Assembly (NCBI GenBank): GCA_016839745.1
Contig: JAEOTS010000072.1
Coordinates: 1 to 28,916, forward strand
Source of the DNA: Promethearchaeota archaeon
GTDB lineage: Archaea; Asgardarchaeota; Lokiarchaeia; Sigyniarchaeales; SOKP01
Direction of reading: 5' to 3'
Length of the DNA: 28,916 bases
Both the position numbers and the translations under genes were made by a program. Position 1 is the first letter of the stretch. Each line of letters begins with the position of its first letter. Below, in pieces: positions 113 through 24,965 of the stretch. Under the pieces are notes generated by a model. That model had not been told where the DNA came from. It saw nothing but the letters and a program-made list of their open reading frames with translations, and ran no database searches.

Positions 113-1780
113 TTACAGTAAAATGATTCCAAACACCATTGAAATCAAACTAATTGTTAACAAAATTTTGTTTATGAGACTAAAAATTGGATATTCCTCC
201 TGAATTTCACTAGGGCTCGTGGCCATCGTGTAGCCACTTAAAGACATTGTAGAGAAAAATGAAACCCAAAAGAAAAACGCGAAGCTCAATAGCATATAGA
301 TTATTGAATTATGTAGGAAATACGTTAAAACTCCCAGAGCAATAGAATCTAATGTTCCAAAGAAAATCCCTTTATATATGAATCTCCGAGTAAATTTAGA
401 TATAGGAAATAAAAATGTTATTAAAAAATTTGAGCCTATTATCCAAAGTAAGAGTTCACCAGCCCACCAAAATTTATCGAACAACCCAATCAGATTTAGA
501 ACAAAGGAAATCAAGAACAAGGCAATTAAGGGCAATAAAAATATTTTTCTCAGTAGAAAGGTCGTGTGAGTAATAAATCCACGAAAACGATGCTTTAACG
601 TAAATTTAGCAAGTTTCATACTATCCGGTTTTCGAGCAGGTCTATTTTTTATAAATTCAGGTAAGTCTTTAGACCATACTGGTCCAAACACCACTCGGAA
701 GGGGAATTCTTTTGTTTTTTTCTGTAAATCTGGAGTAGCTACGCCTCCCGCAGATAATTGTGGGAGAATTAAAGTTTTTCTCTCGGTTATTTCCGCTAAT
801 CCAGTAGCCTCAACTGCTTCTATTAATTCATTATTCCCAAAGTCGTTTCCTCTTGCAGCACACCACACATTTATCCCATTAGAATCAACACATAACACCC
901 AGGCGTCAAGACCTTTTAGATCTCTCATTACTTTAATAAAAGTAAATTCATAGTTTGCGGTAACAATTATAGGAGAGGTTTTATCAGGATTCCCCGATTT
1001 GTAAAGTCCCGGATCTATTGGAACGAGATCTACTTGTCCGGTATAAATACAACGATATATTCTTAGTTGAGATATTATACCTTTAAATTTTTTTGGTTCA
1101 GGTTGATAATATCCCGGTTCATTGGTTTTTTTATCATCAACCTTAATTAATTCGAGGACTTGAATAGTCCCGTGCTTCCAATCTTCTTTTGCTTTAATTT
1201 TAAATCCAATTGGTTCGATATATCTGAAGAACCATTTTAATAGAAATGTACTCCGCAATTTAAGACGTCTAAGCTTCTTTTTATATCTCCATCGTTTTAA
1301 TTTAAACAATAACTTCCAGAAACCATTAGGTACAAATTCAGCAGCCAATATTAACTGACCATTCGGTTTTAATACTTTCCAAGCATTTCTAAGGAATATT
1401 TGTTGCTCAAAAGGTCGAAGTTCAGATAACATGAATGTACTAACAATTAAATCCTGAGAATTCGCATTCACAGGCATGCTAGTAAACGAGCCCGTCTGGT
1501 ATACAAGTGTACCTTCTTTTAGATCAGAAGGATAGTTCTGCATAGCAAAATTAATCATTTGAAAATTGATATCTAGAGCTATAACATCATTTCCCTTTAA
1601 TGCCATTTGAGAGGCGAAACTACCAGTTCCGCATCCAACTTCTAGGATGGACTTAGATTTGCCAATTTTATCAAGTATCCATTCTCTAACCTCTAGATTT
1701 ACACCCTTTGTAAGTACTGTGAATTTAGAATCATAACTATCAGGCTCTTGCTCTAGTTTACGCATATATACTACTGCCAT
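113..1780 (-). CDS. Fusion of a class I SAM-dependent methyltransferase with an HgcA-like corrinoid (CdhD/E-type) domain and a C-terminal multi-TM domain
   Basis: N-terminal ILEVGCGTG, VIALDIN, DLIVS and VLKPNG are SAM-MTase motifs. The middle carries PGLY..G.PD..SPIIVTANY, GINVWCAARG, LILPQLSAGGV and VVFGPV..DLP.F (HgcA-type corrinoid domain). About 5 hydrophobic helices end in SGYTMATSPSEIQEE, similar to the HgcA C-terminal motif. Likely start is ATG 1780 (ORF track 1789). Confidence 0.88.
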   Translation of the reverse strand: MAVVYMRKLEQEPDSYDSKFTVLTKGVNLEVREWILDKIGKSKSILEVGCGTGSFASQMALKGNDVIALDINFQMINFAMQNYPSDLKEGTLVYQTGSFTSMPVNANSQDLIVSTFMLSELRPFEQQIFLRNAWKVLKPNGQLILAAEFVPNGFWKLLFKLKRWRYKKKLRRLKLRSTFLLKWFFRYIEPIGFKIKAKEDWKHGTIQVLELIKVDDKKTNEPGYYQPEPKKFKGIISQLRIYRCIYTGQVDLVPIDPGLYKSGNPDKTSPIIVTANYEFTFIKVMRDLKGLDAWVLCVDSNGINVWCAARGNDFGNNELIEAVEATGLAEITERKTLILPQLSAGGVATPDLQKKTKEFPFRVVFGPVWSKDLPEFIKNRPARKPDSMKLAKFTLKHRFRGFITHTTFLLRKIFLLPLIALFLISFVLNLIGLFDKFWWAGELLLWIIGSNFLITFLFPISKFTRRFIYKGIFFGTLDSIALGVLTYFLHNSIIYMLLSFAFFFWVSFFSTMSLSGYTMATSPSEIQEEYPIFSLINKILLTISLISMVFGIILL

Positions 1781-1823: not shown

Positions 1824-2915
1824 TTAATTAGATTTCCAGAAACCTCGTTTCGCTAGGAATTTTCCAAGATATACTATTGCAAGCATAACAGGTACTTCCC
1901 AAAATAAGCCCATTGTAGTTCCTAAAGCTGCAACAGAACCCACTCCATACATAGCGATAGCTGTTGCAATAGCAATTTCAAAGTGACTTGAGGAACCGAT
2001 AATTACTGTAATAACCGCTTCTTTATACTTCATTTTGAAGATTTTTGTAATAAAAACATTGTAAGCAACCACTATAACAAAACCTACTAAGAGTGGAATT
2101 GAGACTAGAAGCAATAAATCAGGATTATTTATAAGAACATCTCCATTTAAAGAAAATAATACAACTAAAGTTGTCAATAAAGCAACAATTGAAATCTTTC
2201 CAACAAATGGTTTGTAGCTATCGTTAAACCACGACAATCCTTTTGATGCGATGATTAATCTCTTGCTTATTATTCCAAGCAATAATGGTATACCAATGAA
2301 GAATATTAAAGAGATTAGTAATAACAGTGAATTAACTGGAATATTCTGTATACCTGTTAATAAAGAGACCATTGCTACGTACAAAAAGATTATTGTTATC
2401 GTATTTAAGCTTGTATTTACTACATTCTGTTCTTGGTTACCCTTCGCCATCCATCCCCAAACTAACACCATAGCCGTACAGGGCGAACTTGAGAGTAAAA
2501 TTATCGCAACTTTTAGTTCAAGTATATCTTTGGCTGTACCAGGTAGAAATATATTAACCATTGCTAATCCCACAAAAGGAGCGACGAGCCAATTAGAAAC
2601 TAATGTTAATATTATAGGTTTTGGGTTTCTCCTTAATTTCTTCAATTCTGATGCCTGTAAATTCAACATTGCAGGATACATCATGAGAAATAGACAAATT
2701 CCTATTGGTATGGAGATCCCCCCTATTTGTAGTGAATTTATCGTTTCGCTTATTTCTGGAACAAACTGGGAGAGAATAATACCTAATAAAATACATAACA
2801 CTACCCAAATAGGGAGAAGCTTCTCAAAATAATTTATCTTTCTTGATTCTTGTTTTGGTTCTTCCGTTTCACTTAGCTTATGAATAGCTCTATTTTCGAT
2901 ATCTTCTTCAACCAT
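1824..2915 (-). CDS. acr3: Acr3 family arsenite/antimonite efflux transporter
   Basis: About 10 TM segments with LFLMMYP, LVSNW, SPCTAMVLVW and GSSSHFEIAIATA..YG motifs typical of Acr3. Likely start is ATG 2915 (ORF track starts at TTG 2981). Confidence 0.93.
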   Translation of the reverse strand: MVEEDIENRAIHKLSETEEPKQESRKINYFEKLLPIWVVLCILLGIILSQFVPEISETINSLQIGGISIPIGICLFLMMYPAMLNLQASELKKLRRNPKPIILTLVSNWLVAPFVGLAMVNIFLPGTAKDILELKVAIILLSSSPCTAMVLVWGWMAKGNQEQNVVNTSLNTITIIFLYVAMVSLLTGIQNIPVNSLLLLISLIFFIGIPLLLGIISKRLIIASKGLSWFNDSYKPFVGKISIVALLTTLVVLFSLNGDVLINNPDLLLLVSIPLLVGFVIVVAYNVFITKIFKMKYKEAVITVIIGSSSHFEIAIATAIAMYGVGSVAALGTTMGLFWEVPVMLAIVYLGKFLAKRGFWKSN

Positions 2916-3082
2916 CTTCAGTACTTCGTATATTTTAATATTTTTGATGTCGAGAGTATGAGATAGAATATTATACTTCAAATTTAAGGTTGTCGATTTG
3001 AACTAAATAAAAGCCTTAAATGTTATAGATTTATATTTATCGATTTATTCTTTATATTTATAATGAGATTAATATAGAAGAA

Positions 3083-3490
3083 ATGAAGGTGTTACTCATA
3101 AAACAAAAAAGATCTTTAGAAATAAAAAAATTATTATGTACATGTAATAGTTGCTCAAATTCAAATGCTCATTTTGAGAACTTACTAGAATTGGGTAAAA
3201 AGCTAGAAGAGAATGAAAATTTGGATGTGATTGAAAGATTTACATCTGCAATTTCATCCAAGGAGCGATTAATCATCATCAATGCTTTAAAGGAACAAGA
3301 CAGATGTGTATGCGAATTAGAAGCTATATTAAATAAGTCCCAATCTACAATTTCTCATCATTTAAGGAAGCTAGTTACAGCCGGTATAATACAAGGATAT
3401 AAAAAGCAAAAATTTACTTATTATCACTTGTTTAAGGAAGAAATAAAGCAATACTTAGAAATTTTTAATCAAGTATTAACTGTTAATTAG
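3083..3490 (+). CDS. arsR: ArsR/SmtB family metalloid-sensing transcriptional repressor
   Basis: RLIII..L, CVCEL alpha3 metal site and SQSTISHHLRKL..AGII HTH. Divergent from acr3; extra N-terminal CTCNSC. Confidence 0.92.
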   Translation: MKVLLIKQKRSLEIKKLLCTCNSCSNSNAHFENLLELGKKLEENENLDVIERFTSAISSKERLIIINALKEQDRCVCELEAILNKSQSTISHHLRKLVTAGIIQGYKKQKFTYYHLFKEEIKQYLEIFNQVLTVN

Positions 3491-3650: not shown

Positions 3651-3905
3651 ATGCCGAAACCCGTTCCTGATGATGAGGAAAGTATGAGCGAATGTCGGAA
3701 ATTCTGTGGTCCTTGTCCTTCGTTCAAACCTAATCAATTAAACGAATTTGAGCCACATGCGCTTTTTTGTTCGCGTGGAAAAACTGAAAAACCGATGTCC
3801 GAAGTTAAAAATAATGGTTGTAGTTGCTTTGGTTGTGGATTATTTCCAAAGTACGAACTAGAAGGCGGATTTTTCTGTATGCATGGTACTGGCGGAAAAA
3901 AATAA
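3651..3905 (+). CDS. Small Cys-rich putative metal-binding protein (DUF2769-like)
   Basis: 8 Cys in 84 aa: CxxxCxxCPSF...LFCxxGK...GCxCxxC...FFCxxG, resembling the archaeal DUF2769 pattern. Confidence 0.7.
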   Translation: MPKPVPDDEESMSECRKFCGPCPSFKPNQLNEFEPHALFCSRGKTEKPMSEVKNNGCSCFGCGLFPKYELEGGFFCMHGTGGKK

Positions 3906-4136: not shown

Positions 4137-5417
4137 ATGATATACTCTATGGAAGATATGGATAACGATATAGAATTCTCTAAATACTATCGGGTAATTA
4201 CACCAAATGAAATTAACATTGATAGGGAGGAGATTTTTTATAGAGATAAGTATAACGATATCATTAGTTATTTGAAGATTATGTTAACCAACCACGAGGA
4301 TTCGATCACTCAGAGTTATAATAAATTTATTCAGCCAAAAGGTGCTATTCTAATCAATATTAAGTCTGGAACGGATATTGATGATTATTTAAAGCTAATT
4401 TCCAAAAATTATTATCTAAATTTTTATGAACTAAATCAGGAGGAAATCATAAAGGCGCCTGAGGTGTTTATTAACAACTTTACATCTATTCTACAAAGTT
4501 TAATACAAGTTAAGGAAACAAATTCAGATGAAATTGGTGAGGAAACTCAACCAACTGAAGATCAACTAAAAGAAAATAGAATAAAAGGAATACTATTAAT
4601 TAATCAAGAGAATTTTACTAACATCAAATTAAAAAAAAGGAGCTTATTAGAGTATTTTGTAATATCTTTTAAAAATAAAAAGGAAATATTGAAAAATGGG
4701 CTAATTTTAATCTGGATTAACAATGACATTAAAGAGATCGAAGTAAATTCAAGATCAATTTTTGAAGTCTTTGATCTGTTTATAAAAATTCCCCTTTTAG
4801 ATAACATCGAGAGAGAGACGATTTTCAGGAACTTCTCAGAAAAGAATCCGAAAATCGTATTTGACATTAAAACACTAGTAGACTTCACAGTTAATTGGGA
4901 AATAAAGGATATAAATCAATTGCTGAAAGTGGGTATCTTTAAACATTTTCTTAAATCCGAATTAAATGATTCAAGTAATGAAATTACAGATGGATTGATT
5001 GACTTAATAGAATCGGGAGAATTCATTCCTTCCATTTCTCATGAGGAGGTAAAATTGGATTTTTCGAATGATAAAGTAACTGAAAATCAAAACTCATTAA
5101 ATATGAGATTCATGAAGGGAGGAAAAACGGGGATAACAGTTAATGGATCGTCTGAAGTTCTTAATCTAATAAAGCAAGAAAGGTTCTCCGAATTTATGCT
5201 CAACCAATTATATGAAAACGCAGTTTCTAAGAATTATAGTGAGCTCTTACTCATTATTGATAAATTAAATAAGCAGGAACTATTAGAAGAAAATGATAGA
5301 AAACTACTAGCAAAATACGCTTTTATTCTAAACGATAGTCCAAAAATGGCTCAAATTAATTTAGAAAAAGCAAAAAAACGTATAGATAATTTAAAGCGAG
5401 CTTTTGGAAAAAAATAA
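4137..5417 (+). CDS. Degenerate (Walker A/B-inactivated) classic-clade AAA+ fold protein
   Basis: QPKGAILINIKSGTDIDDYLKLIS aligns by eye with PKGhLLxGPPGTGKTLLAKAhA. ILLINQE sits at Walker B and LILIWINN at sensor 1. FDLFIKIPLLDNIERETIF resembles FDRxIxIPLPDxxxRxxIL, and DIKTLVDFTVNWEIKDINQL resembles the lid DLxxLAxxTxGxxGADIxxL. Confidence 0.65.
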   Translation: MIYSMEDMDNDIEFSKYYRVITPNEINIDREEIFYRDKYNDIISYLKIMLTNHEDSITQSYNKFIQPKGAILINIKSGTDIDDYLKLISKNYYLNFYELNQEEIIKAPEVFINNFTSILQSLIQVKETNSDEIGEETQPTEDQLKENRIKGILLINQENFTNIKLKKRSLLEYFVISFKNKKEILKNGLILIWINNDIKEIEVNSRSIFEVFDLFIKIPLLDNIERETIFRNFSEKNPKIVFDIKTLVDFTVNWEIKDINQLLKVGIFKHFLKSELNDSSNEITDGLIDLIESGEFIPSISHEEVKLDFSNDKVTENQNSLNMRFMKGGKTGITVNGSSEVLNLIKQERFSEFMLNQLYENAVSKNYSELLLIIDKLNKQELLEENDRKLLAKYAFILNDSPKMAQINLEKAKKRIDNLKRAFGKK

Positions 5418-5435
5418 TATAATGGGTGACAATGA

Positions 5436-8400
5436 ACGGCTACTTCCTCTAAAAGAAAGGTAAAAGAAATAATTGAAAAAAAACCTAACGAGAATGGTAT
5501 ATTTCTTCGCAAAGTTATATTAGAAAACTTTTTATCATTTCAAAGAGACGAAGTAGATTTTTCAATTCAAGAAAACCAAGATCCTCCTCGTTTTATTTTA
5601 ATCATTGGACCAAACTGGAGCGGGAAAACATCAATTTTTCAGGCTATTAAATTTGCTTTAGGGAGTAATGAAAGAGACGAACGTTATAAAAAGTGGTCTG
5701 ATTTTATTAGAAACGGTCAAGCTCATGCTATGGTTGAACTTCATATTCAGTACCATGGTGAAATCCTTAAAGTAAGAAGAACTGTTATAAGAGGAAAATC
5801 TCCTTTTTTCGAAATTCAACTTAACCATGACCAGAATTTTAAAAAAGTTCATGTGAATGAAATTCAAAAACTTATTACTGAGTTAGAAATTAATCCCGAC
5901 AATCAATTCGCGTTTGTAAGTCAAGGTAAAATCGATGCAATTAAGAATTTAAAACCTATCGAGTTATGTTCATTTTTAGAAGAAGGTATTGGGCTTAAAG
6001 GTCTCAGAGAGGAGATACTTCAACAAAAAAAAGGTGTTTTATCTTTAGATATAGAATTTCAATCACTAGTAACCAGAAAAAATACATTAAATTTTAACTT
6101 GGATATATTAGCACCAAAGTTAGAACGGCTTAATGAGAAAAAGAAATTATTAGATATCAGAAATAAATATACTGATGAATTGTTATGGGCTAATAAGGAT
6201 GTTCTACAAAAAGATATTGAGAAATTGGAGTTATCCTTCAAGGAGAGCCAAAACAAAATAAACTCTATAACCAAGGAAACTGGAAAATACCGAAGTTTAG
6301 TTAAAGAAAAAGAAAGAATAATTATTGAAATAGATAACAACCTTAATAATGCATCAAAAAAAACGGGAGAATTAGAATATAAAAAAAAAGAACTAGTAGA
6401 AAAAATTGATGCTTGGCAGAAAGAAAAAATAATAGCAAAACAAGAATTGGATGAGTTATCAGCAAAAGTCTCGGAAATAGAAAAGGTTGTAGATAAATTT
6501 AACAGCCAAAAGCAAAACTTGGAAAATGAAATCAAAATAGTTAACAGAAAGAAACAATCTGTAAAGAGCGACATTGACAAATCGATTAAAGAACAAAATG
6601 ATCTTATAAGAATGATCAAAGAGAATGAAGCTTTCTTAGAAAAATATAACAATTTAACTAATGAAAAAGAAGGATATTTAAGAACTATCCAAGAGAATGA
6701 AAGTAAAATTGAAAACACCAATAAAGATATCAACGACATATTTCAAAGTTTGATGGACATTGACCACAAACTAGAAAAAAATAAATGGTTCTTAGAAAAT
6801 CCTTCAAACGATTTATTGAAGCAATTAGATACTGATCTAAAGAAAGTTACCGTAAACTTACTAAATTTTGGAGCTGAAATCGAGCAGTTAGAATACAACA
6901 AATCGAAAAAGATGCAAAAGTTTAAAGTACTACAAACAGCATTAAGAGAACGAAAAATCGTTTTGTCACCCAATATTAATGTTCTCAAAGAAGAAATTAA
7001 GAAAAGAGAATTAGAGGATCGCGTTAAAGGTCCAATAATCGAGTATTTAAAATATGACGATGAGTTAAGCTACGCAATTGAATCGGTTTTAGGAGAGCGG
7101 CTACTTAATAGTTTTATTGCGAGCGATTGGGACACATTAAACTTATTAGAGAGATTAAAAAAGAAATATAATGCTTATTGTAATATCTATATTCCAAAGA
7201 AGGTAAATGTTACTCCCTTTCCAAAAATTTCAGCTGCAGGAGTAATAGGTTATTTAGCAGAATTAATTAAAATTATTGATGACGATGTAAATGTTCAAAA
7301 AGTTATTTATTCGAAGATTAAAAATTGTCTTGTTGTTAAAGATAATCTCTCTGCAAAAGAGCTTTATAAAACAAGAGCTTTCAAGGGTAAGTGTGTGACT
7401 CTACAAGGTAAACAGATAATATCGTATAAGTATGTATATGAGAGTCCTCATATAAAACGACTTAAAGGTTTATTAAGCGCAGGGACTCAAAAGGAACAAT
7501 CTGAACTGGTAGAAAAAGAAATTAAATCGTTAAATGATAAAATATTAGAATTAAAAGTGAATCAAGCAAAATTTGAAAAGCTTCAAGGTGAGATTTTTAG
7601 AAAAAAAGAATCATTTACTGACCTTTTGTTCAATTTCAAGCACAAAGAAAGGTTAACTTCAAAAAAAAATCAATTATATAATCAGATTTATTCATTAGAA
7701 CAAAAAAATGGAGAAATTAAAGAAGACATTAAAGACCTCACGAAAAAAATCAAAGATTTTGAGTCTCAAAAAGAGCCTGAATTCTTCGATTGGAACAATA
7801 GAGTAAAGGAAATTCCAAACGAACTAAACAATTTAAACAATGAACTAAAAAAATGGGATAAAAAATTAAATGATAATCTAGAATCATTAAAGGAAATCAA
7901 TGATAATATAAATTTTAATGAAAACAATTTAAGCATAGTTAAACTAAATTACGATGCGAAAAAAACTGATTTCCAGAAGTCAGATAAAAAGGCATTTGAA
8001 ATTTATAGAAAATTAGAAAATTTGGAAGATGAGATTCTATCAATTAAGACAAAAATCTCTAAATTGCAGGACCGAAAAGTAATAACACAGAAAGAGAAGC
8101 GCGAGATAGACCAAGCTCATATTCAAGTAAAACTAAGCTTAGAGCAAGAAATTTTTAAGCAATCTTCAATAAAACATGAATTAGGGATGAAGAAGGAAGA
8201 TCTAAACCGCATTTTATCTGAAATTGGGCAATATATCGGAGAAGAAAAAATAACAGTTCGCCCAATAGAAGATATTAATAGAGACGTACTAAAAATTGAT
8301 AAAGAACTTTTAAATTATTTAGATGTCGACGATTCACTTTTAATAGAAAAAGAACAGATGATTACAGGTTTAAAAGAAATTACAAAAAATCAGAAAGAAT

Positions 8401-8927
8401 TAGAAAGAGACATAAAGGCAGCTATTAAAACAGAAAAAAAATTGGAAACCACATATTTTGATAAGTTTCAAATAGTTCTTAAGGAATTAAATTCTAAAAT
8501 CAACCAAAAATTTAACTCCGCAAATATTAAAGCTTATTGTACTCTTGAGATAATAGGAAATTTTGAAGAATTGGGTATAGATATCAAGGCTGCGATCTCA
8601 AAAGACCAGTTAAAATCTTGTACAGCCTTAAGTGGTGGTCAAATTTCAATGATTTCAATTAGTTTAATCTTATCTCTTCAAGAAATTAAACCTTCGCCAT
8701 TATGTATGTTTGATGAAGCCGGAATGTTTTTGGACGATAAGAATTCAGAAGCTTCGTATCATATGATAAAATCTACTTTAGAAAACAACTCTATTCAATT
8801 ATTAATGTTTCTTCCAAAATCATCAAATGCGTTATATTCACTCGCAGACAAGTTAATTGGAGTTGCAAGAGTTGGCAAAAAAGAAGTATCTACCATATTT
8901 AAACCTAAAATTTTAAAAGAAAGATAA
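5436..8927 (+). CDS. smc: SMC family ATPase, non-canonical/SMC5/6-like (~1163 aa)
   Basis: The frame is open from 5436 and encodes LRKVILENFLSF and Walker A GPNWSGKT (5607-5630) upstream of the ORF-track start at 5730. It has Q-loop FVSQG, long coiled coils, hinge VKGPIIEYL...AIESVLG, signature LSGGQ and Walker B/D-loop CMFDEAGMFLD. The start codon is uncertain. Confidence 0.92.
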   Translation, partial: TATSSKRKVKEIIEKKPNENGIFLRKVILENFLSFQRDEVDFSIQENQDPPRFILIIGPNWSGKTSIFQAIKFALGSNERDERYKKWSDFIRNGQAHAMVELHIQYHGEILKVRRTVIRGKSPFFEIQLNHDQNFKKVHVNEIQKLITELEINPDNQFAFVSQGKIDAIKNLKPIELCSFLEEGIGLKGLREEILQQKKGVLSLDIEFQSLVTRKNTLNFNLDILAPKLERLNEKKKLLDIRNKYTDELLWANKDVLQKDIEKLELSFKESQNKINSITKETGKYRSLVKEKERIIIEIDNNLNNASKKTGELEYKKKELVEKIDAWQKEKIIAKQELDELSAKVSEIEKVVDKFNSQKQNLENEIKIVNRKKQSVKSDIDKSIKEQNDLIRMIKENEAFLEKYNNLTNEKEGYLRTIQENESKIENTNKDINDIFQSLMDIDHKLEKNKWFLENPSNDLLKQLDTDLKKVTVNLLNFGAEIEQLEYNKSKKMQKFKVLQTALRERKIVLSPNINVLKEEIKKRELEDRVKGPIIEYLKYDDELSYAIESVLGERLLNSFIASDWDTLNLLERLKKKYNAYCNIYIPKKVNVTPFPKISAAGVIGYLAELIKIIDDDVNVQKVIYSKIKNCLVVKDNLSAKELYKTRAFKGKCVTLQGKQIISYKYVYESPHIKRLKGLLSAGTQKEQSELVEKEIKSLNDKILELKVNQAKFEKLQGEIFRKKESFTDLLFNFKHKERLTSKKNQLYNQIYSLEQKNGEIKEDIKDLTKKIKDFESQKEPEFFDWNNRVKEIPNELNNLNNELKKWDKKLNDNLESLKEINDNINFNENNLSIVKLNYDAKKTDFQKSDKKAFEIYRKLENLEDEILSIKTKISKLQDRKVITQKEKREIDQAHIQVKLSLEQEIFKQSSIKHELGMKKEDLNRILSEIGQYIGEEKITVRPIEDINRDVLKIDKELLNYLDVDDSLLIEKEQMITGLKEITKNQKELERDIKAAIKTEKKLETTYFDKFQIVLKELNSKINQKFNSANIKAYCTLEIIGNFEELGIDIKAAISKDQLKSCTALSGGQISMISISLILSLQEIKPSPLCMFDEAGMFLDDKNSEASYHMIKSTLENNSIQLLMFLPKSSNALYSLADKLIGVARVGKKEVSTIFKPKILKER

Positions 8928-8929
8928 TT

Positions 8930-9577
8930 ATGGAAAATTTAGATTTTTCAGAGGAGATCAATAAAAAGATTGATATTATTAAAGATGATGTTCTTTCAGG
9001 TAAAATTAACTTATTGGAGCTCGAATTAAATCCAATTTTTCTCGATATTAAAGATTCACTTAGCATTTTCAACATTGAAAATTATTCACAAAGTTACATA
9101 AATGCATGCGAGCTACTAAACCGTAAATTTGAGGAATTAAGGAATTTACTTAGTTCTTTAGATATTGAAAAGAAATTTATGGATTTCTTAAAAGAGAGTC
9201 CAGCAGAAGAAGAAATAATTGAGATTTTTAATGGTTGCTGGAATTATAATTTTGAATTAGAAGCGCTATCTCTAAATTTTTTAGAATATGCCTCAAGTCG
9301 TTTCTGTAAAGAAAAGATAGTGGATTTAACGATTGAACACTTGAATAGAGAGAGAAGTGACTATCAATTTTTATTAGAAATCCCTAGGCTAATGTTTATG
9401 GAAAAAGTCAATACATTTTTTAATAAAATCAGAAATAAACTCCCATGCTATTTCGAAGATGTGTTTGAAAATGAGATAGAACAATTAATGATTTACGAAC
9501 AGTTCGTATATCTGTTGCACCTGCTTCAATTAGGGAAAATTAAATATCAAAAAGAGACAAATACATTATATGTGTGA
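8930..9577 (+). CDS. Kleisin-like subunit (ScpA/Nse4-like)
   Basis: Starts 2 nt after the smc stop. N-terminal helical region (INLLELELNPIF) and C-terminal winged-helix motif FEDVF...FVYLLHLLQLGKIKYQ, typical of kleisin C-termini. Confidence 0.75.
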   Translation: MENLDFSEEINKKIDIIKDDVLSGKINLLELELNPIFLDIKDSLSIFNIENYSQSYINACELLNRKFEELRNLLSSLDIEKKFMDFLKESPAEEEIIEIFNGCWNYNFELEALSLNFLEYASSRFCKEKIVDLTIEHLNRERSDYQFLLEIPRLMFMEKVNTFFNKIRNKLPCYFEDVFENEIEQLMIYEQFVYLLHLLQLGKIKYQKETNTLYV

Positions 9578-10106
9578 GGTTTTTGAAAGAATGAATGAAA
9601 TTTCAATTTTAATGCACTTACTTAGTAGAAAGAGAAATTCCTATCAAATAGGGGCTACTAAAAAAGAGATACTCGAGATTTTAAATGTTAAAAATAAGAA
9701 CAAATCGATTCATTTCCAAAATTTGATTGCTGGATTATCTAATTACCTTATTCCACTGGGACTTCAAGTAAAATTCAATTCGCTAAATTCACACTGGTAT
9801 ATAAATTACGATAGTGAGGTCACAGAATTGGTTTCTGCTAATCCTTTTGAGGGAAAACCTAGTTTAGCAGCAACTTTATTATGTGCACTAACTTCTTGTC
9901 TTAAGAATTCTGGTTCTTCTTCAATTCAGGAAATCAAAAAATTAAGAAGCAAAAAAGAGATAACAGATGATTTAAAGGAGCTGGAAAAGGAAGGTTACTT
10001 AGTAATAGATAAAACGACTAACCAAGTTCAACTCACACCTCTAATTGGATATAAATTAGATTTACATAAATTGTTGGTAAAATTATCTTTAAAATTAGAA
10101 GAATAA
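9570..10106 (+). CDS. KITE-like tandem winged-helix subunit (ScpB/Nse1/Nse3-like)
   Basis: Overlaps the kleisin stop by 8 nt (alternative ATG at 9591). Two WH-like halves: ...LSNYLIPLGLQVKF...WYI, and AATLLCAL...DDLKELEKEGYL...VQLTP. Confidence 0.7.
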   Translation: MCEVFERMNEISILMHLLSRKRNSYQIGATKKEILEILNVKNKNKSIHFQNLIAGLSNYLIPLGLQVKFNSLNSHWYINYDSEVTELVSANPFEGKPSLAATLLCALTSCLKNSGSSSIQEIKKLRSKKEITDDLKELEKEGYLVIDKTTNQVQLTPLIGYKLDLHKLLVKLSLKLEE

Positions 10107-17294: not shown

Positions 17295-17534
17295 TTTTAG
17301 ACAACTTCCGTACTTTTAAGAAATGCTAAGAAGATTAAATAATTACGATTATTAAATATTGTTGGTAATTATATATAAAAAATTGAATATTTAGTTGTAT
17401 ACACTCAATTAACACCCTTCAATTTAATTGGGGTTTTACCTAATGCAAAGGAATCAGTTTTGTTAAGGTTTTAACAATTAGATTCTAATATTATAAAAAT
17501 AAGATTTTTAATGAATCTATGTAGGTTTAAGAAT

Positions 17535-18542
17535 ATGGCTCAAGTAATATTTATTTCTAAAAAAACTGTTCGTGACGCTTGGCTTTCAGCCGTAGCTCAA
17601 GTTTTATACAATGGAGACGACATTAGAACCGAATATGATAAGAAGCAAGATCCTCCATCCAAAGACGCAACTGTATTAATCGAAATAGAAAATCCAATGA
17701 GTGAACCTATTTCTCGGAAAGATAAAGTAATGAAGATCAGCTCAAAATATGGAAATTCTTTCGAGGTATACGGTTGTATGGCAGATACTTACTTGATAGG
17801 TTCCATACAAAGCGGCTACATTGAAGAAATCATGGAAGGCGCAAGCGATCACTATTTATGGGAGTCGGATACGAGTTTTCCGTATTCGTATTACGATAGA
17901 ATTTTTAATTATACACCTTATTCCTTGGAGGATTCTATCCATGTAAATTACGATTTAGAATTCGTGGATAATAATTTCGTTAAGAAGCACAAAAAACTAT
18001 TGAAAGCAGGTAAAGTTCAAACTTCTGAGGATTCCGTAATCTGGAAATTAAAACACCTAGTTGATTTCGATTTAAACAAAAATATACCGGTCCAGGTAGG
18101 GATTGAAAAAATCCCGATTGAAGTAATCAGTTTCCCAAAAATAGATCAAATAGAATACATTATTAGAAAGCTAAAAGAAAAACCGTACTCACGCAGAGCT
18201 CAAGCAATAACTTGGCGACCACTTGTCGATCCATTTCACATTGATCCTCCTTGTCTTCAGAGGATTTTTATGCGAGTAAAAGATGATAAATTAATCATGC
18301 AAACAACTTGGAGGAGTAGAGATTTGTTTAGAGCATGGGAAGCAAATGTAAATGGAATGATTCGAATCCAGAAGTATGTCGCCGATCAACTTGGATTAGA
18401 GATGGGACATTACTTAGATTTTAGTAACTCTTTGCATATTTACGGTAATACAATATCTGAAGTTAAAGACATGTTTAAGAGAATGAAAAATAGAGGAGAA
18501 GAATTTCCTGAGGAAGTAATTGAGTTATTAGAACAAAAATAA
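17535..18542 (+). CDS. thyA: Archaeal-type thymidylate synthase ThyA with an internal insertion
   Basis: DQIEYII..L, SRRAQAITW, catalytic PPCLQ, WRSRD, AN and SLHIY motifs. Start is either 17511 or 17535. Confidence 0.88.
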   Translation: MAQVIFISKKTVRDAWLSAVAQVLYNGDDIRTEYDKKQDPPSKDATVLIEIENPMSEPISRKDKVMKISSKYGNSFEVYGCMADTYLIGSIQSGYIEEIMEGASDHYLWESDTSFPYSYYDRIFNYTPYSLEDSIHVNYDLEFVDNNFVKKHKKLLKAGKVQTSEDSVIWKLKHLVDFDLNKNIPVQVGIEKIPIEVISFPKIDQIEYIIRKLKEKPYSRRAQAITWRPLVDPFHIDPPCLQRIFMRVKDDKLIMQTTWRSRDLFRAWEANVNGMIRIQKYVADQLGLEMGHYLDFSNSLHIYGNTISEVKDMFKRMKNRGEEFPEEVIELLEQK

Positions 18543-18587: not shown

Positions 18588-20936
18588 TTATGCGTGACAA
18601 AGTCGCTTAAGTAAAGTTGGATCAACTATTTCTTTTGGTTTCCAACCTCTTTGTTTTAAGAAGTCTACAATTTCGTCTTTCATGTTAATAGGAATATCCG
18701 CGTCCACTCGAATAAATTTTTCTAAATCGTTTGGAAAGTCTACCCCTTTATATTTTCGTTCTAAGTCTATCCAGTGCGATAGTTTAATCATTCTACCTTT
18801 TGAGTTATCTGCAGGTCTTAAACACATTTTAGCTACCAAACAAATTGCTTGCTCTATCGATTCTGCTGTAGTTAGTAAATGTTCAGGCCCTGGTCCAACT
18901 AAATGGTCGGCTGTTCCGTCTCTTGCGTTAAAAACTTTCCACGAATCTTCGTTATCAGATCGGCCTATATACGCACGCCGATATTCTGCAGCATGTGGAC
19001 CCACTACGGCAGGAACACCTAACCCATTTGCCATACTTGCTATACTGGCTGCTTTTTGTGACATTGCTCCCCATGCTACACCCACAGCTCCAACCCTATG
19101 CAATATATAATCAGAGATTTCTTCGAAGTTACCCCTTAATGGCCGTCTTGCAAAAATATTCGCCACTTTTATCGCTGCACCCGTAATGTGTGGATTTGAA
19201 ACGCAAGAACCAACATTAACTAAGCCTCCTCTATCAAATTCTCCAGGGAATCTATCATAAAGCGTCTTACCCTCTTCATCTTTCACTAAACCGATATCCA
19301 TGGCTCCACATCCTGAAACTACTACAATGTAATTTCTTACGCAGAATTCTTCAGCTAGCTTATATAGTTCTTGGATATCCTTGCCATAACTAGCGCATCC
19401 AATAATCGCAACTATCCCGGGTATCTCTCCAAGTACTATCGGAGCTCCGACATTTCGTATTTCTGTATCTTGAATTGGACCTCTTCCAACTCTGACATTG
19501 TATTTCTCATTTCTGATTTTATCCCTTCCCGCATACATTATTAGCGTTAATGGTGATACATCTTTCATACAATCAGCTTCACAGCGTCCACAATCTAGAC
19601 AATCGTCAAAAACTTTCTCTAAAACGGAAAAATCACCTTCTTTAGCTAGGTTTACTCCTTCAACAAGAGGTAAATCGTTAGGACAATTACGTTGGCAATT
19701 TCCGCAGCCATTACAATTGTATGCCATTTTAATACAGCCTTCCTCGTCGGGAATACCACTTCGAGATTTTCTAATTGGGTGGACTTTAACTGCCGTTTCA
19801 ACAGCTACCTTTCCTGCCTTTATTGGATCTAAAATTAGTACTCCATCCATTTTACCACTAACTAAATCGTCTATTATTTCTTCAGCAGGATCGTTCGTTC
19901 TATTTGGTAAACCTCCCATATTTTTTTCGTTAGTAGCAATAAATGGAGATCCTACTAGTTTAGCTTGCTCAAAACTGCGAAGATTGACACACTGTTCATC
20001 GACCATGACTACATCTGCCAAACCAGAGCGGATGAAGTGCATTTGTCTAGACATTGAACCAATAACTTTGGCTCCATCGTAATATCTGGTTAAATCTAAA
20101 GCAGTACAACAAATTGCTCCCACATCTATTTTGTCTCCTAAATTTTGTTCACGCATATAATCAACAAGTTCTACTCCAGGAGCAACATTGTGTCCTATCA
20201 TTAATATTGTTGCTTTATTTTCGACATCCATGGTTCCCATACCTAATTCTACAACGGGAACATCAGGATCTCCTGCAGGGAATCCATACGCAGCAATTTG
20301 AACGGCGTCTGATATCTCCATACCAACCGAATCTGCTAATCCAGCAAGAAAACTTTTAGCCTCGTAATCTAAATGAGATGATTCTTGTCCTGTGTGACCT
20401 GATGCGAGTAAATGAGTAATGGTATAATGTACCCATTCCATTGCTGTTTCCAAATCTTCTAATGTTTCAGGTTTCATACCAACAACTAATCGAGTATGAG
20501 GCATCTCAACGGCAATGTTATTACCAAAATTTATTGGAACATTCCCATATTTCTCTTTAAGCCAGTGAAGTAAGTGATCTCCATGAGCTGAATGACAAGA
20601 AGCTCCTATACAACAAGCAATTTCTACTATCCTTGCTTGCTGTGTTTCCATGTTAATTCCACAAGCACCTGTTCTACCCTTCGAAAGATTACATTTTCCG
20701 TACGTACAAAGACAACACATGTCACAAATAGGCATATAGTACGGAGGATATCTATCCATGAGTTTAAAGAACCAATCTCGCAATGTGGGAATATGAGGTT
20801 TAGGGGTTGGCCCCATTGGTTCCCATTCTGTTTCGTCGCCCCAGCTTATCTTACCAGTAGTTAATTCAAAGCCTTTGATTGAACCTAAAGGTCCTTTGTA
20901 TTCATCTATTTTTATTCTAGCACCTTTTTTACTCAT
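18588..20936 (-). CDS. cdhA: Archaeal CO dehydrogenase/acetyl-CoA decarbonylase/synthase complex alpha subunit
   Basis: CDMCCLCTYGKC..GACG; C-cluster ligand motifs GHN, ICCT, DEQC, GCA, SGCG and GSCV; two ferredoxin motifs CNGCGNC..CP and CLDCGRCE..C. Likely ATG at 20936 (track 20945). Confidence 0.95.
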   Translation of the reverse strand: MSKKGARIKIDEYKGPLGSIKGFELTTGKISWGDETEWEPMGPTPKPHIPTLRDWFFKLMDRYPPYYMPICDMCCLCTYGKCNLSKGRTGACGINMETQQARIVEIACCIGASCHSAHGDHLLHWLKEKYGNVPINFGNNIAVEMPHTRLVVGMKPETLEDLETAMEWVHYTITHLLASGHTGQESSHLDYEAKSFLAGLADSVGMEISDAVQIAAYGFPAGDPDVPVVELGMGTMDVENKATILMIGHNVAPGVELVDYMREQNLGDKIDVGAICCTALDLTRYYDGAKVIGSMSRQMHFIRSGLADVVMVDEQCVNLRSFEQAKLVGSPFIATNEKNMGGLPNRTNDPAEEIIDDLVSGKMDGVLILDPIKAGKVAVETAVKVHPIRKSRSGIPDEEGCIKMAYNCNGCGNCQRNCPNDLPLVEGVNLAKEGDFSVLEKVFDDCLDCGRCEADCMKDVSPLTLIMYAGRDKIRNEKYNVRVGRGPIQDTEIRNVGAPIVLGEIPGIVAIIGCASYGKDIQELYKLAEEFCVRNYIVVVSGCGAMDIGLVKDEEGKTLYDRFPGEFDRGGLVNVGSCVSNPHITGAAIKVANIFARRPLRGNFEEISDYILHRVGAVGVAWGAMSQKAASIASMANGLGVPAVVGPHAAEYRRAYIGRSDNEDSWKVFNARDGTADHLVGPGPEHLLTTAESIEQAICLVAKMCLRPADNSKGRMIKLSHWIDLERKYKGVDFPNDLEKFIRVDADIPINMKDEIVDFLKQRGWKPKEIVDPTLLKRLCHA

Positions 20937-21023
20937 CCATTTCACTTCTTTTTTTATAATATAGATCAGAATAATGATTCTTTGTTATAAAAGTCTAATT
21001 AAACGCAAATATAAGTGTTTAAT

Positions 21024-23575: not shown

Positions 23576-23669
23576 ATTTTTTTCACATTTTGTTTTTGTT
23601 AATATCTTTTTGATTTATATTTTTAATTATGATAGATTCTATATTCTAAGTAAAACAAGATGTTTTTAT

Positions 23670-24965
23670 GTGTTAGCTTTGCGAAAAAAAGTTGCATTTG
23701 TAGTTTTTTATCAGAAACAAAATATCTACAGCTTTAATGCGCTAATTGCTGCTATAGAAACGAAACACAAACTAAATGACATTGAAGTTTTCTTTATTCG
23801 TGGTTATGAGAACCTCTATAACGATTTAGAAAAAATAAAAGATTCTCACAGAAGTACTATATTAGGGATCTCCTTTTTTACTACTCAATTATGGGAGATC
23901 AGAGATTTAGTCAAATCTTTACGAGACAAATATAAGGATAGTGTAATATTTATTGCAGGAGGACCACACCCAACTGGAGATCCCGAAGGAACTCTTAAAA
24001 TGGGTTTTGATTTAGTTGTGAGGGGAGAGGGGGAAGAAACTTTAATTGATATTCTTTTTAACATTAAGAATAATAAAGACTATAATGATGTTAAAGGAAT
24101 TGCTTATTTAGGGAAAGATAATAAACTAATTTTAACTAAAAAGAGGAAATGGATCGATTTAAATAAATATCCTCCTTTACCAAGTAAACACATTAAATAT
24201 GGAGCTATTGAAATAACTAGAGGTTGTCCTTATGTGTGCTATTTTTGTCAAACACCTTATATTTTAGGAACCGTTCCAAGACATAGAAGTATCAAATCTA
24301 TATGTGGTGCTGTTAGGATTATGAAGGAATATGAGAAAACTGACATTAGATTTATAACTCCTAATGCCTTTTCTTATGGTTCTCATGACGGGAAAACACT
24401 TAATCTTCCCGAATTAGAACGATTATTAATTAATATTAAAAAGATAGTTGAACCTGAAGGGAGGATTTATTTTGGATCTTTTCCTTCTGAGGTTAGACCT
24501 GAGCACGTAACAGAAGAAACATTAGGATTAGTTTTAAAATATGCTGCTAATGACAACATCGTAATTGGTGCTCAATCTGGGAGTCAAAAGATATTAAATT
24601 CATGTAATAGAGGCCATTCAGTTGATGATGTTTATAATGCAGTAGAATTAACAATAAAAACTGGGCTAATCGCAAATGTAGACTTTATTTTTAACTTGCC
24701 TAATGAAACCGATGATGATATAAATCTTACTATACATTCTATGAAGGAGTTGTCAGATATGGGAGCAATAATACATACACACTCCTTTATGCCCTTACCA
24801 CTTACAGCATTTGCAAATGAAACTGTAAAAGAAATTGACGAAAAAACTAGAAAGATCATCTCAGAATTAAGCTCAAAAGGATTGGCTTACGGAGATTGGA
24901 AAAAACAGGAAAAAGTAGCAAAAAATATAGCCAGTTATTTTAAATTGAAGAAATTAAGCGATTGA
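23670..24965 (+). CDS. B12-binding domain radical SAM protein (TIGR04013/MJ1487-like)
   Basis: AGGPHPTG and VRGEGE (B12-binding domain), EITRGCPYVCYFC (CxxxCxxC), RFITPNAFSYGS and FPSEVRPE. Start is probably GTG 23670 or TTG 23679 (track 23610). Confidence 0.88.
   Translation: MLALRKKVAFVVFYQKQNIYSFNALIAAIETKHKLNDIEVFFIRGYENLYNDLEKIKDSHRSTILGISFFTTQLWEIRDLVKSLRDKYKDSVIFIAGGPHPTGDPEGTLKMGFDLVVRGEGEETLIDILFNIKNNKDYNDVKGIAYLGKDNKLILTKKRKWIDLNKYPPLPSKHIKYGAIEITRGCPYVCYFCQTPYILGTVPRHRSIKSICGAVRIMKEYEKTDIRFITPNAFSYGSHDGKTLNLPELERLLINIKKIVEPEGRIYFGSFPSEVRPEHVTEETLGLVLKYAANDNIVIGAQSGSQKILNSCNRGHSVDDVYNAVELTIKTGLIANVDFIFNLPNETDDDINLTIHSMKELSDMGAIIHTHSFMPLPLTAFANETVKEIDEKTRKIISELSSKGLAYGDWKKQEKVAKNIASYFKLKKLSD

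What the first reader, a model, noticed from the sequence alone, without database searches (positions are those of the whole stretch)
113..1780. SAM-methyltransferase fused to a full HgcA-like corrinoid membrane protein
Seen: one ORF contains a class I SAM-MTase (about residues 1-215), a corrinoid domain with cap-helix Cys310 (NVWCAARG, nt 871-848) and an HgcA-like TM tail ending SGYTMATSPSEIQEE. Known: the mercury methylase HgcA has N(V/I)WCA(A/G)GK, lacks a Rossmann MTase domain and works with the ferredoxin HgcB; SAM has been reported as methyl donor for HgcAB. Known HgcA paralogues usually fuse a ferredoxin, which is absent here. The MTase N-terminus (YMRKLE..P..YD) resembles, from memory and unverified, MTases encoded next to HgcA-like genes. 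Inference: this is a self-contained SAM-to-cobalamin-to-metal(loid) methylating enzyme, and the AGK-to-ARG change may reflect a different substrate.
Basis: partly seen in the sequence, partly recalled or inferred. Interest (0 to 1): 0.9.

Follow-up and report, generated by a model that had tools for sequence, protein, structure and literature searches.

The report
Methyltransferase-fused HgcA cousin in arsenic operon
This Asgard (Loki) archaeon has a real, widely conserved gene that joins a SAM-using methyltransferase to a membrane vitamin-B12 protein related to, but distinct from, the mercury-methylating enzyme HgcA; it sits with an HgcB-like ferredoxin in the cell's arsenite-export operon and probably methylates a toxic metal or metalloid such as arsenic, which is untested but can be tried in two cultured relatives.

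Summary
The fusion is real: one 555-aa ORF with a CpaM-like class I methyltransferase, a corrinoid domain with cap-helix Cys307 (not 310) and five membrane helices. It is no chimera: strong matches in 98 of 135 genomes of its family, in other Asgard lineages, and in cultured P. syntrophicum and L. ossiferum. An HgcB-like ferredoxin starts 53 nt downstream, cut by the contig end, and follows the gene in nearly all relatives. The protein is not canonical HgcA, HgcAB-like fusion or CdhE (below all cut-offs; own 100/100 clade). It is one fusion form of a three-part module (CpaM + HgcA-like + ferredoxin) whose split parts NCBIfam already lists. Here it follows the genome's only acr3 hit, opposite an arsR. 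Best reading: SAM loads a Cys-ligated cobalamin, which methylates a thiol-bound metal(loid); As/Sb about 0.4, Hg about 0.2. Against: ArsM often co-occurs, and true Hg methylators also sit in ars operons. This scan found the same fusion before in about 30 other genomes. New variant of a known kind; interest 0.55.

The parts
113..1780 (-). Fusion ORF, 555 aa: CpaM-like SAM methyltransferase + HgcA-like corrinoid domain + 5 membrane helices (alternative TTG start at 1789 gives 558 aa)
   Evidence: orthologues start at the same Met
1145..1774 (-). Class I methyltransferase domain (residues 3-212), CpaM-like. Motif I glycines 49/51/53 are invariant and D70 is near-invariant. It has a basic amphipathic helix insert (155-172). 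Only one Cys (in motif I), so not an ArsM.
   Evidence: NF043040 138.8 bits, cut-off 180; conservation; 28% identity to MK-D1 CpaM, E 6e-20, against E 8e-10 to ArsM over the core only; Z about 21
626..1078 (-). Corrinoid-binding domain (about residues 235-385), with a second conserved Cys244 in the preceding helix (79 of 87 homologues)
   Evidence: PF03599; NF040863 191 bits
848..871 (-). Cap helix NVWCAARG; Cys307 (codon 862-860), equivalent to HgcA Cys93, the predicted cobalt ligand
   Evidence: Cys in 87 of 87 aligned homologues; helix 305-310 in the model
119..598 (-). Membrane domain, five helices (residues 395-554), alignable to canonical HgcA up to the last loop
1..59 (-). First 19 codons of the HgcB-like 2x[4Fe-4S] ferredoxin, cut by the contig end; 53 nt after the fusion's stop
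   Evidence: full gene in near-identical locus L122; best NCBIfam hit of orthologues is HgcB NF040864, below cut-off
1824..2915 (-). acr3 arsenite efflux pump (PCTAM motif; likely start ATG 2915, longest ORF from TTG 2981); ends 43 nt before the fusion; the only acr3 hit in this 89%-complete genome
   Evidence: TIGR00832 269.7 bits, cut-off 282.8
2982..3045 (-). Two tandem 17-nt boxes (2982-2998 and 3029-3045; AATCGAYAA...TAAAT) 47 nt apart; putative ArsR operator or promoter elements
   Evidence: only these 2 matches in the 3.5-Mb genome (0.14 expected; the pattern was drawn from this site and relatives); same pair and similar spacing in 11 related loci; function inferred
3083..3490 (+). Divergent ArsR/SmtB repressor with the CVCE metalloid-binding box
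   Evidence: PF01022, NF033788 over cut-off; C[VA]CE in 33 of 35 orthologues
3651..3905 (+). Small Cys-rich DUF2769 protein behind arsR; present in some related loci
   Evidence: PF10967 E 2e-10

Best explanation
A membrane-bound, three-part methyl relay that is switched on by arsenite/antimonite and methylates a thiol-bound soft metal(loid), most likely As(III) or Sb(III). Steps: (1) ArsR lifts repression of acr3-fusion-ferredoxin when As(III)/Sb(III) is present (gene order and boxes shown; regulation inferred). (2) The HgcB-like ferredoxin reduces the bound corrinoid to Co(I) (inferred from HgcAB, PMC11588087). (3) The fused CpaM domain binds SAM and hands the methyl to Co(I); Cys307 becomes the axial ligand of methyl-Co(III) (SAM fold and Cys shown; transfer inferred). 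(4) The ferredoxin's thiols (Cys73-equivalent inside a GCxC, plus terminal Cys/CC) hold the metal(loid) and present it for methyl transfer (thiols shown; role inferred). (5) The product leaves the cell. I put about 0.65 on the relay (steps 2-4) and about 0.4 on As/Sb as its physiological target.
For: CpaM is tied to non-canonical HgcA-like proteins in every locus examined: fused here; a separate gene just upstream in 6 of 6 HgcAB-like loci (a methyltransferase gene in all six; CpaM-like by BLAST in the five with DNA) and in L108, L109, L115; triple fusion in L078. A ferredoxin follows in 21 of 21 spread Loki loci; GCxC in 65 of 65 and a C-terminal Cys in 63 of 65. Cys307 is invariant. Model pLDDT 89.6, pTM 0.87; top fold hit HgcAB. 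ars genes lie within 3.5 kb in 12 of 21 spread Loki loci, 29 of 29 close ones, and an ArsR-like gene in 4 of 7 Thor loci. ArsM sits directly before the fusion in L043, arsC follows in L046/L051. In L046, where an insertion breaks acr3, the fusion has its own pair of boxes; L050 and L053 have one box without acr3. This genome has no arsM hit (best 68 of 263 bits). SAM methylates Co(I)-HgcA with Cys ligation (PMC11588087).
Against: No activity has been measured. ArsM and the fusion do not exclude each other: 34 both, 64 fusion only, 14 ArsM only, 13 neither, p=0.12 among non-independent kin. No ars gene near 10 of 10 loci of family f16 or the six CpaM + HgcAB-like loci. True Hg-methylating hgcAB are also flanked by acr3/arsC/arsM/arsR (PMC7438021), so context does not fix the substrate. 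P. mercurii ND132, with ArsR-controlled hgcAB, made no methylarsenicals (10.1101/2022.10.17.512643). Canonical HgcA takes methyl from SAM without any MTase, so the need for CpaM is unexplained.
Confidence: 0.42

Rival explanations
1. It is a working mercury methylase: a divergent HgcAB with a built-in SAM loader, under ArsR control like some canonical hgcAB.
For: All residues shown essential in HgcAB have counterparts: Cys93, five membrane helices, HgcB Cys73 and terminal Cys (PMC7305189). The closest non-Asgard proteins are canonical HgcA. Canonical hgcAB also lie in ars operons.
Against: Fails the high-stringency motifs for HgcA and HgcB (PMC10087281; Loki ferredoxin has CTECSAC). Below NCBIfam cut-offs. 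Outside the canonical clade, 100/99. Tested organisms with non-canonical fused HgcAB made no methylmercury.
Confidence: 0.2
2. The relay is real, but the acceptor is not a toxic metal(loid): a thiol/selenol, membrane lipid, quinone or protein. In Loki it was recruited into the arsenic-stress regulon, for example to repair or protect thiol/selenol targets.
For: Most CpaM + HgcAB-like loci and all f16 fusion loci lack ars genes. ArsM coexists in a third of fusion genomes. Loki operons also carry a putative double-selenocysteine protein and DUF166. The MTase fold matches Coq5 and a phospholipid N-methyltransferase as well as any.
Against: The partner's conserved free thiols and the Cys-on cap helix are the features tied to soft-metal methylation in HgcAB. 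One bacterial locus lies among heavy-metal genes (HMA, cation efflux, P-type ATPase).
Confidence: 0.23
3. The methyltransferase does not feed the main turnover. Either it only reactivates oxidised cobalamin (as the SAM domain of MetH does), or it methylates a substrate directly while the Co(I)/ferredoxin part acts as a reductase or dehalogenase.
For: Canonical HgcA needs no MTase to take methyl from SAM. A 2026 preprint reports halomethane dehalogenation by Hg methylators (10.64898/2026.04.26.720869). MetH precedent is from my own knowledge.
Against: Strict co-occurrence and repeated fusion of CpaM with the corrinoid protein fit an obligatory hand-over. The MTase lacks the Cys set that would bind a metalloid itself.
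Confidence: 0.15

Closest known systems
CpaM (NCBIfam NF043040) + HgcAB-like fusion protein (NF043039; the 'fused HgcAB' of Podar 2015, PMC4646819)
   Same: The same three parts in the same order: MTase, Cys-cap corrinoid membrane protein, 2x[4Fe-4S] ferredoxin. P. syntrophicum carries this split form as a second, separate locus (L109; WP_147663823/WP_147663822).
   Different: Here MTase and corrinoid protein are fused and the ferredoxin is free, with HgcB-like extra thiols. Below both cut-offs (138.8/180; 182.9/285). A separate clade. Sits in an ars operon, unlike the six split loci checked.
HgcA/HgcB mercury methylase (NF040863/NF040864; Pseudodesulfovibrio mercurii ND132)
   Same: Cap-helix Cys, five membrane helices, 36% identity over 278 residues, downstream ferredoxin with Cys73-equivalent and terminal Cys, frequent ArsR/acr3 context, SAM as likely donor.
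   Different: Extra N-terminal MTase; cap helix ends ARG instead of AGK; ferredoxin CTECSAC instead of C(M/I)ECGA and an extra Cys (GCxC); outside the canonical clade; no activity shown.
Asgard 'hgcA' of Lin 2023 (PMC10083202) and Zhang 2023 (ISME J 17:478)
   Same: Lin 2023 places Loki/Thor sequences in the fused-HgcAB subtree. Only 1 of 400 Asgard genomes has canonical HgcA over cut-off, so the many Asgard hgcA that Zhang reported are probably this family or its paralogues (inference; the content of Zhang is recalled, only its title was seen).
   Different: I found no text describing the N-terminal MTase or the ars operon; Lin trimmed the first 327 alignment columns. Zhang 2023 could not be read, so prior mention is not excluded.
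ArsM arsenite methyltransferase (NF008823)
   Same: Class I SAM fold; same operon type and, in L043, the neighbouring gene.
   Different: 32 bits against cut-off 263; no catalytic Cys set; would methylate through cobalamin, not directly.
CdhE/AcsC (NF003195)
   Same: Homologous corrinoid domain.
   Different: 72 bits against cut-off 306; CdhE has no cap Cys and no membrane domain; the genome has its own cdhE on C180; outgroup at 100/100.

Membership tests
HgcA (canonical) | Cap-helix Cys (Cys93 equivalent) | tested here: met
   Cys307, invariant in 87 of 87
HgcA (canonical) | Motif N[V/I]WC[A/S][A/G/S]GK | tested here: not met
   NVWCAARG in all 121 sequences; definition in PMC10087281
HgcA (canonical) | Five-helix C-terminal membrane domain | tested here: met
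   model helices 395-554; hydropathy
HgcA (canonical) | NF040863 score at or above 275; inside the canonical clade | tested here: not met
   191.4 bits; canonical clade 100/99 excludes it
HgcA (canonical) | Adjacent hgcB with two CxxCxxCxxxC motifs, Cys73 and a terminal Cys | tested here: met
   start present at 59-1; features seen in orthologues; this genome's own copy is cut by the contig end
HgcB (canonical) | C(M/I)ECGA motif; NF040864 at or above 99 | tested here: not met
   orthologues 47-58 bits; motif in 8 of 65, none of them Loki
HgcA (canonical) | Methylates Hg(II) | not testable with these tools
   needs assay
HgcAB-like fusion (NF043039) | Ferredoxin fused at the C-terminus; score at or above 285; inside that clade | tested here: not met
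   no Fd motif in the ORF; 182.9 bits; clade 98/96 excludes it
CpaM (NF043040) | Class I MTase linked to an HgcA-like corrinoid protein | tested here: met
   best hit over residues 3-210 of a 216-position model, E 2e-40; next family E 1e-13; fused to the corrinoid domain
CpaM (NF043040) | Score at or above 180 | tested here: not met
   138.8 bits; related fusions pass (P0272 230.6, L078 251.8), so a divergent member at best
ArsM | Conserved As-binding cysteines; NF008823 at or above 263 | tested here: not met
   one Cys in the domain; 32 bits
CdhE/AcsC | N-terminal FeS and TIM-barrel domains, no cap Cys, score at or above 306 | tested here: not met
   72.3 bits over the last domain only; tree
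Corrinoid protein | Binds cobalamin with Cys ligation | not testable with these tools
   no cobalamin ligand is offered for modelling

The most novel reading that the evidence does not exclude
An ArsM-independent, cobalamin-dependent As(III)/Sb(III) methylase, carried by most Lokiarchaeia, that keeps the older three-part form (CpaM + HgcA-like + HgcB-like) from which canonical HgcAB arose by losing its SAM loader. Mercury methylation would then be a derived or side activity of a metalloid-handling enzyme, and the many Asgard 'mercury methylators' would be miscounted.
Probability: 0.25. Interest if true: 0.85.

Novelty: new variant of a known kind. Interest (0 to 1): 0.55.

Why it matters
The native role and origin of HgcAB are long-standing open questions, and how SAM reaches its cobalamin is not known. 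A relative with a built-in SAM domain, in an arsenic operon, present in two cultured Asgard archaea (WP_147664869.1, UYP44054.1), makes both testable. It also bears on mercury budgets: Lokiarchaeia are abundant in sediments and pass looser hgcA screens, yet only 1 of 400 Asgard genomes has canonical HgcA. Tempering this: the parts are catalogued, Asgard hgcA-like genes are published, the ars link is known for canonical hgcAB, and no function is shown.

Tried and rejected
Chimera: rejected. CdhE or ArsM identity: rejected. 'Ferredoxin absent': rejected. The fusion as a replacement for ArsM: not supported, p=0.12, and kin are not independent. ARG as a substrate marker: rejected as uninformative. 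Complex prediction (MTase domain against corrinoid domain, with SAM) was sent six times and never answered: no result. Expression: two metatranscriptome runs have short contigs on the fusion, the ferredoxin start and acr3, and none on arsR; these are contigs, DNA carry-over is not excluded, so no claim. A search for stand-alone CpaM with the N-domain gave only fragments of the fusion; split forms came from neighbourhoods instead. Papers not held: Zhang 2023 ISME J, Smith 2015, Haft & Gwadz 2023, Thomas 2011. Searches for CpaM / NF043039 / NF043040 found no paper on the family. The branching order among non-canonical clades and canonical HgcA is unresolved (83/71 at best), so ancestry is not shown; no AU test was run.

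Full report
OBSERVATION. The ORF at 113-1780 (-) is one open frame of 555 aa. Pfam gives a class I methyltransferase (residues 46-145, E 2e-17) and CdhD/PF03599 (235-344, E 3e-16). NCBIfam is more telling: residues 3-210 match CpaM, 'corrinoid protein-associated methyltransferase' (138.8 bits, cut-off 180); residues 255-548 match HgcA (191.4, cut-off 275) and the HgcAB-like fusion (182.9, cut-off 285), far above CdhE (72.3). NVWCAARG lies at nt 871-848; its Cys is residue 307 from the ATG, 310 only from an upstream TTG. An AlphaFold model from 87 homologues (pLDDT 89.6, pTM 0.87) shows the Rossmann domain, the corrinoid domain with a helix at 305-310, and five C-terminal helices. Its best Foldseek hit is the HgcAB integrative model 9a0b; the N-domain matches class I MTases at Z about 21, none standing out.

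NOT A CHIMERA. 120 listed homologues, nearly all full length at 63-93% identity, all keep NVWCAARG. Among 400 Asgard genomes, 98 of the 135 in this genome's family have a strong match, and full-length matches at 32-36% occur in two other families. The closed genomes of Promethearchaeum syntrophicum (WP_147664869.1) and Ca. Lokiarchaeum ossiferum (UYP44054.1) carry it, both in the order arsR, acr3, fusion, ferredoxin. Public names are uninformative ('methyltransferase domain-containing protein', UbiE).

THE MISSING FERREDOXIN IS THERE. The contig ends 112 nt after the stop. Nt 59-1 (-) encode the first 19 residues of a 2x[4Fe-4S] ferredoxin, seen whole in a 90%-cluster relative on a 449-kb contig, with the same 53-nt gap in close kin. 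It follows the fusion in 21 of 21 spread Loki loci, 8 of 10 of family f16 and 6 of 7 Thor loci. Its best NCBIfam hit is HgcB, under cut-off (47-58 of 99). All 65 have GCxC about 12-14 residues after the second cluster, which I read as the Cys73 equivalent plus one more Cys; 63 have a terminal Cys; only 8 have C(M/I)ECGA. In ND132, Cys73 and at least one terminal Cys are needed for Hg methylation (PMC7305189).

PLACE IN THE FAMILY. A 63-sequence IQ-TREE of the corrinoid and membrane region gives four firm groups: CdhE (100/100), canonical HgcA (100/99), HgcAB-like fusions (98/96) and the Loki fusions (100/100), these sister to Thor fusions (96/87); the order among them is open. Canonical references came from a search of 50% representatives and two were checked over cut-off. 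Only 1 of 400 Asgard genomes has an HgcA over cut-off. Every non-canonical locus I opened has a methyltransferase in front: separate in 6 of 6 HgcAB-like loci (CpaM-like in the five with DNA) and in three Asgard paralogues; fused in an Abyssubacteria-labelled protein with a free ferredoxin; fused to both in L078. So this is a three-part module found in all fusion combinations, and the window holds the 'MTase-A + B' form.

CONTEXT. 43 nt upstream ends acr3 (TIGR00832 269.7 bits), the only acr3 hit in this genome; opposite lies an ArsR with a CVCE box. Between them are two 17-nt boxes, unique in the genome and kept at similar spacing in 11 related loci. In L046 an insertion splits acr3 and the fusion has its own pair of boxes; L050 and L053 have one box without acr3. 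That suggests the fusion itself belongs to the regulon, but the boxes' function is untested. ars genes lie within 3.5 kb in 12 of 21 spread Loki loci and ArsR-like genes in 4 of 7 Thor loci, but in 0 of 10 f16 loci. Relatives add arsC, arsM (once), DUF166, a Cys-rich thioredoxin-like-looking protein and a protein with in-frame TGA-TGA. This genome (89% complete) has no arsM hit, but across the family ArsM and the fusion often coexist (34 of 98).

MECHANISM. Purified HgcAB is reduced through HgcB, takes a methyl from SAM on Co(I), and is then Cys-ligated (PMC11588087). By homology I infer the same here, with CpaM as a dedicated SAM loader and the ferredoxin's thiols presenting the acceptor. An extra thiol would suit three-coordinate As(III)/Sb(III) (inference). 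Shown: domains, conserved residues, partner gene, operon. Inferred: cofactor binding, hand-over, regulation, substrate. The caution is real: canonical hgcAB are often flanked by acr3, arsC, arsM and arsR too (PMC7438021), and ND132 made no methylarsenicals, while tested fused-HgcAB organisms made no MeHg. Odds: As/Sb 0.42, another acceptor 0.23, Hg 0.2, MTase off the main path 0.15.

NOVELTY. The split parts are NCBIfam families without, as far as I found, a paper. Lin 2023 shows Loki/Thor sequences in the fused-HgcAB subtree after trimming the N-terminal columns. Zhang 2023 reported Asgard hgcA (title seen; content recalled, paper not held). I found no description of the MTase fusion or its ars operon, but cannot exclude one. 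This scan has noted the same fusion in 45 windows of 31 genomes; those notes agree with, but are not support for, this reading. Verdict: new variant of a known kind, interest 0.55.

Noticed in passing
L004, L030, L043, L051, L122 (about 1 kb downstream of the ferredoxin); own genome C157:29730-30130: An unannotated ~120-aa protein whose frame runs through TGA-TGA into a conserved continuation in 24 of 25 loci (TGA-Gly-TGA-TGA in L052): a likely double-selenocysteine protein in the same operon of relatives. This genome has a homologue elsewhere. No NCBIfam hit. SECIS not looked for.
   Followed up: partly
L004:8145-8594 and orthologues: Small protein with a CxC-W motif directly after the ferredoxin in many Loki operons; no NCBIfam hit.
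   Followed up: no
L046:3414-6577 (G241): Two unknown ORFs (852 and 202 aa) are inserted in the 3' end of acr3, and a second copy of the twin boxes stands before the fusion: possibly an integrative element.
   Followed up: partly
L109 (P. syntrophicum), L108, L115: Some Asgard genomes carry a second, split copy of the module (CpaM + HgcAB-like, or three separate genes), so MK-D1 has two paralogous systems.
   Followed up: partly
L078, L079, P0309: Triple fusion MTase-HgcA-like-ferredoxin (587-591 aa, cap helix NVWCAACG), over cut-off for both CpaM and HgcAB-like (L078).
   Followed up: partly
L120 (G397:C110): The only canonical hgcA-hgcB pair in 400 Asgard genomes, on a short contig of a 9%-contaminated bin, with a methyltransferase gene about 1 kb upstream; may be contamination or transfer.
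   Followed up: partly
window 4137-10106: Degenerate AAA-like ORF, SMC protein, and two small ORFs that look like kleisin/ScpB-type partners; this block adjoins the ars operon in many Loki loci.
   Followed up: no
window 18588-20945 (-); 23610-24965 (+); 17511-18542 (+): CdhA (TIGR00314 over cut-off) standing alone; B12/radical SAM protein TIGR04013; archaeal thymidylate synthase-like gene with a long insert.
   Followed up: no
G143 (P. syntrophicum): No CdhE over cut-off was found in this closed genome with NF003195; only the two HgcA-like proteins hit. One query only.
   Followed up: no
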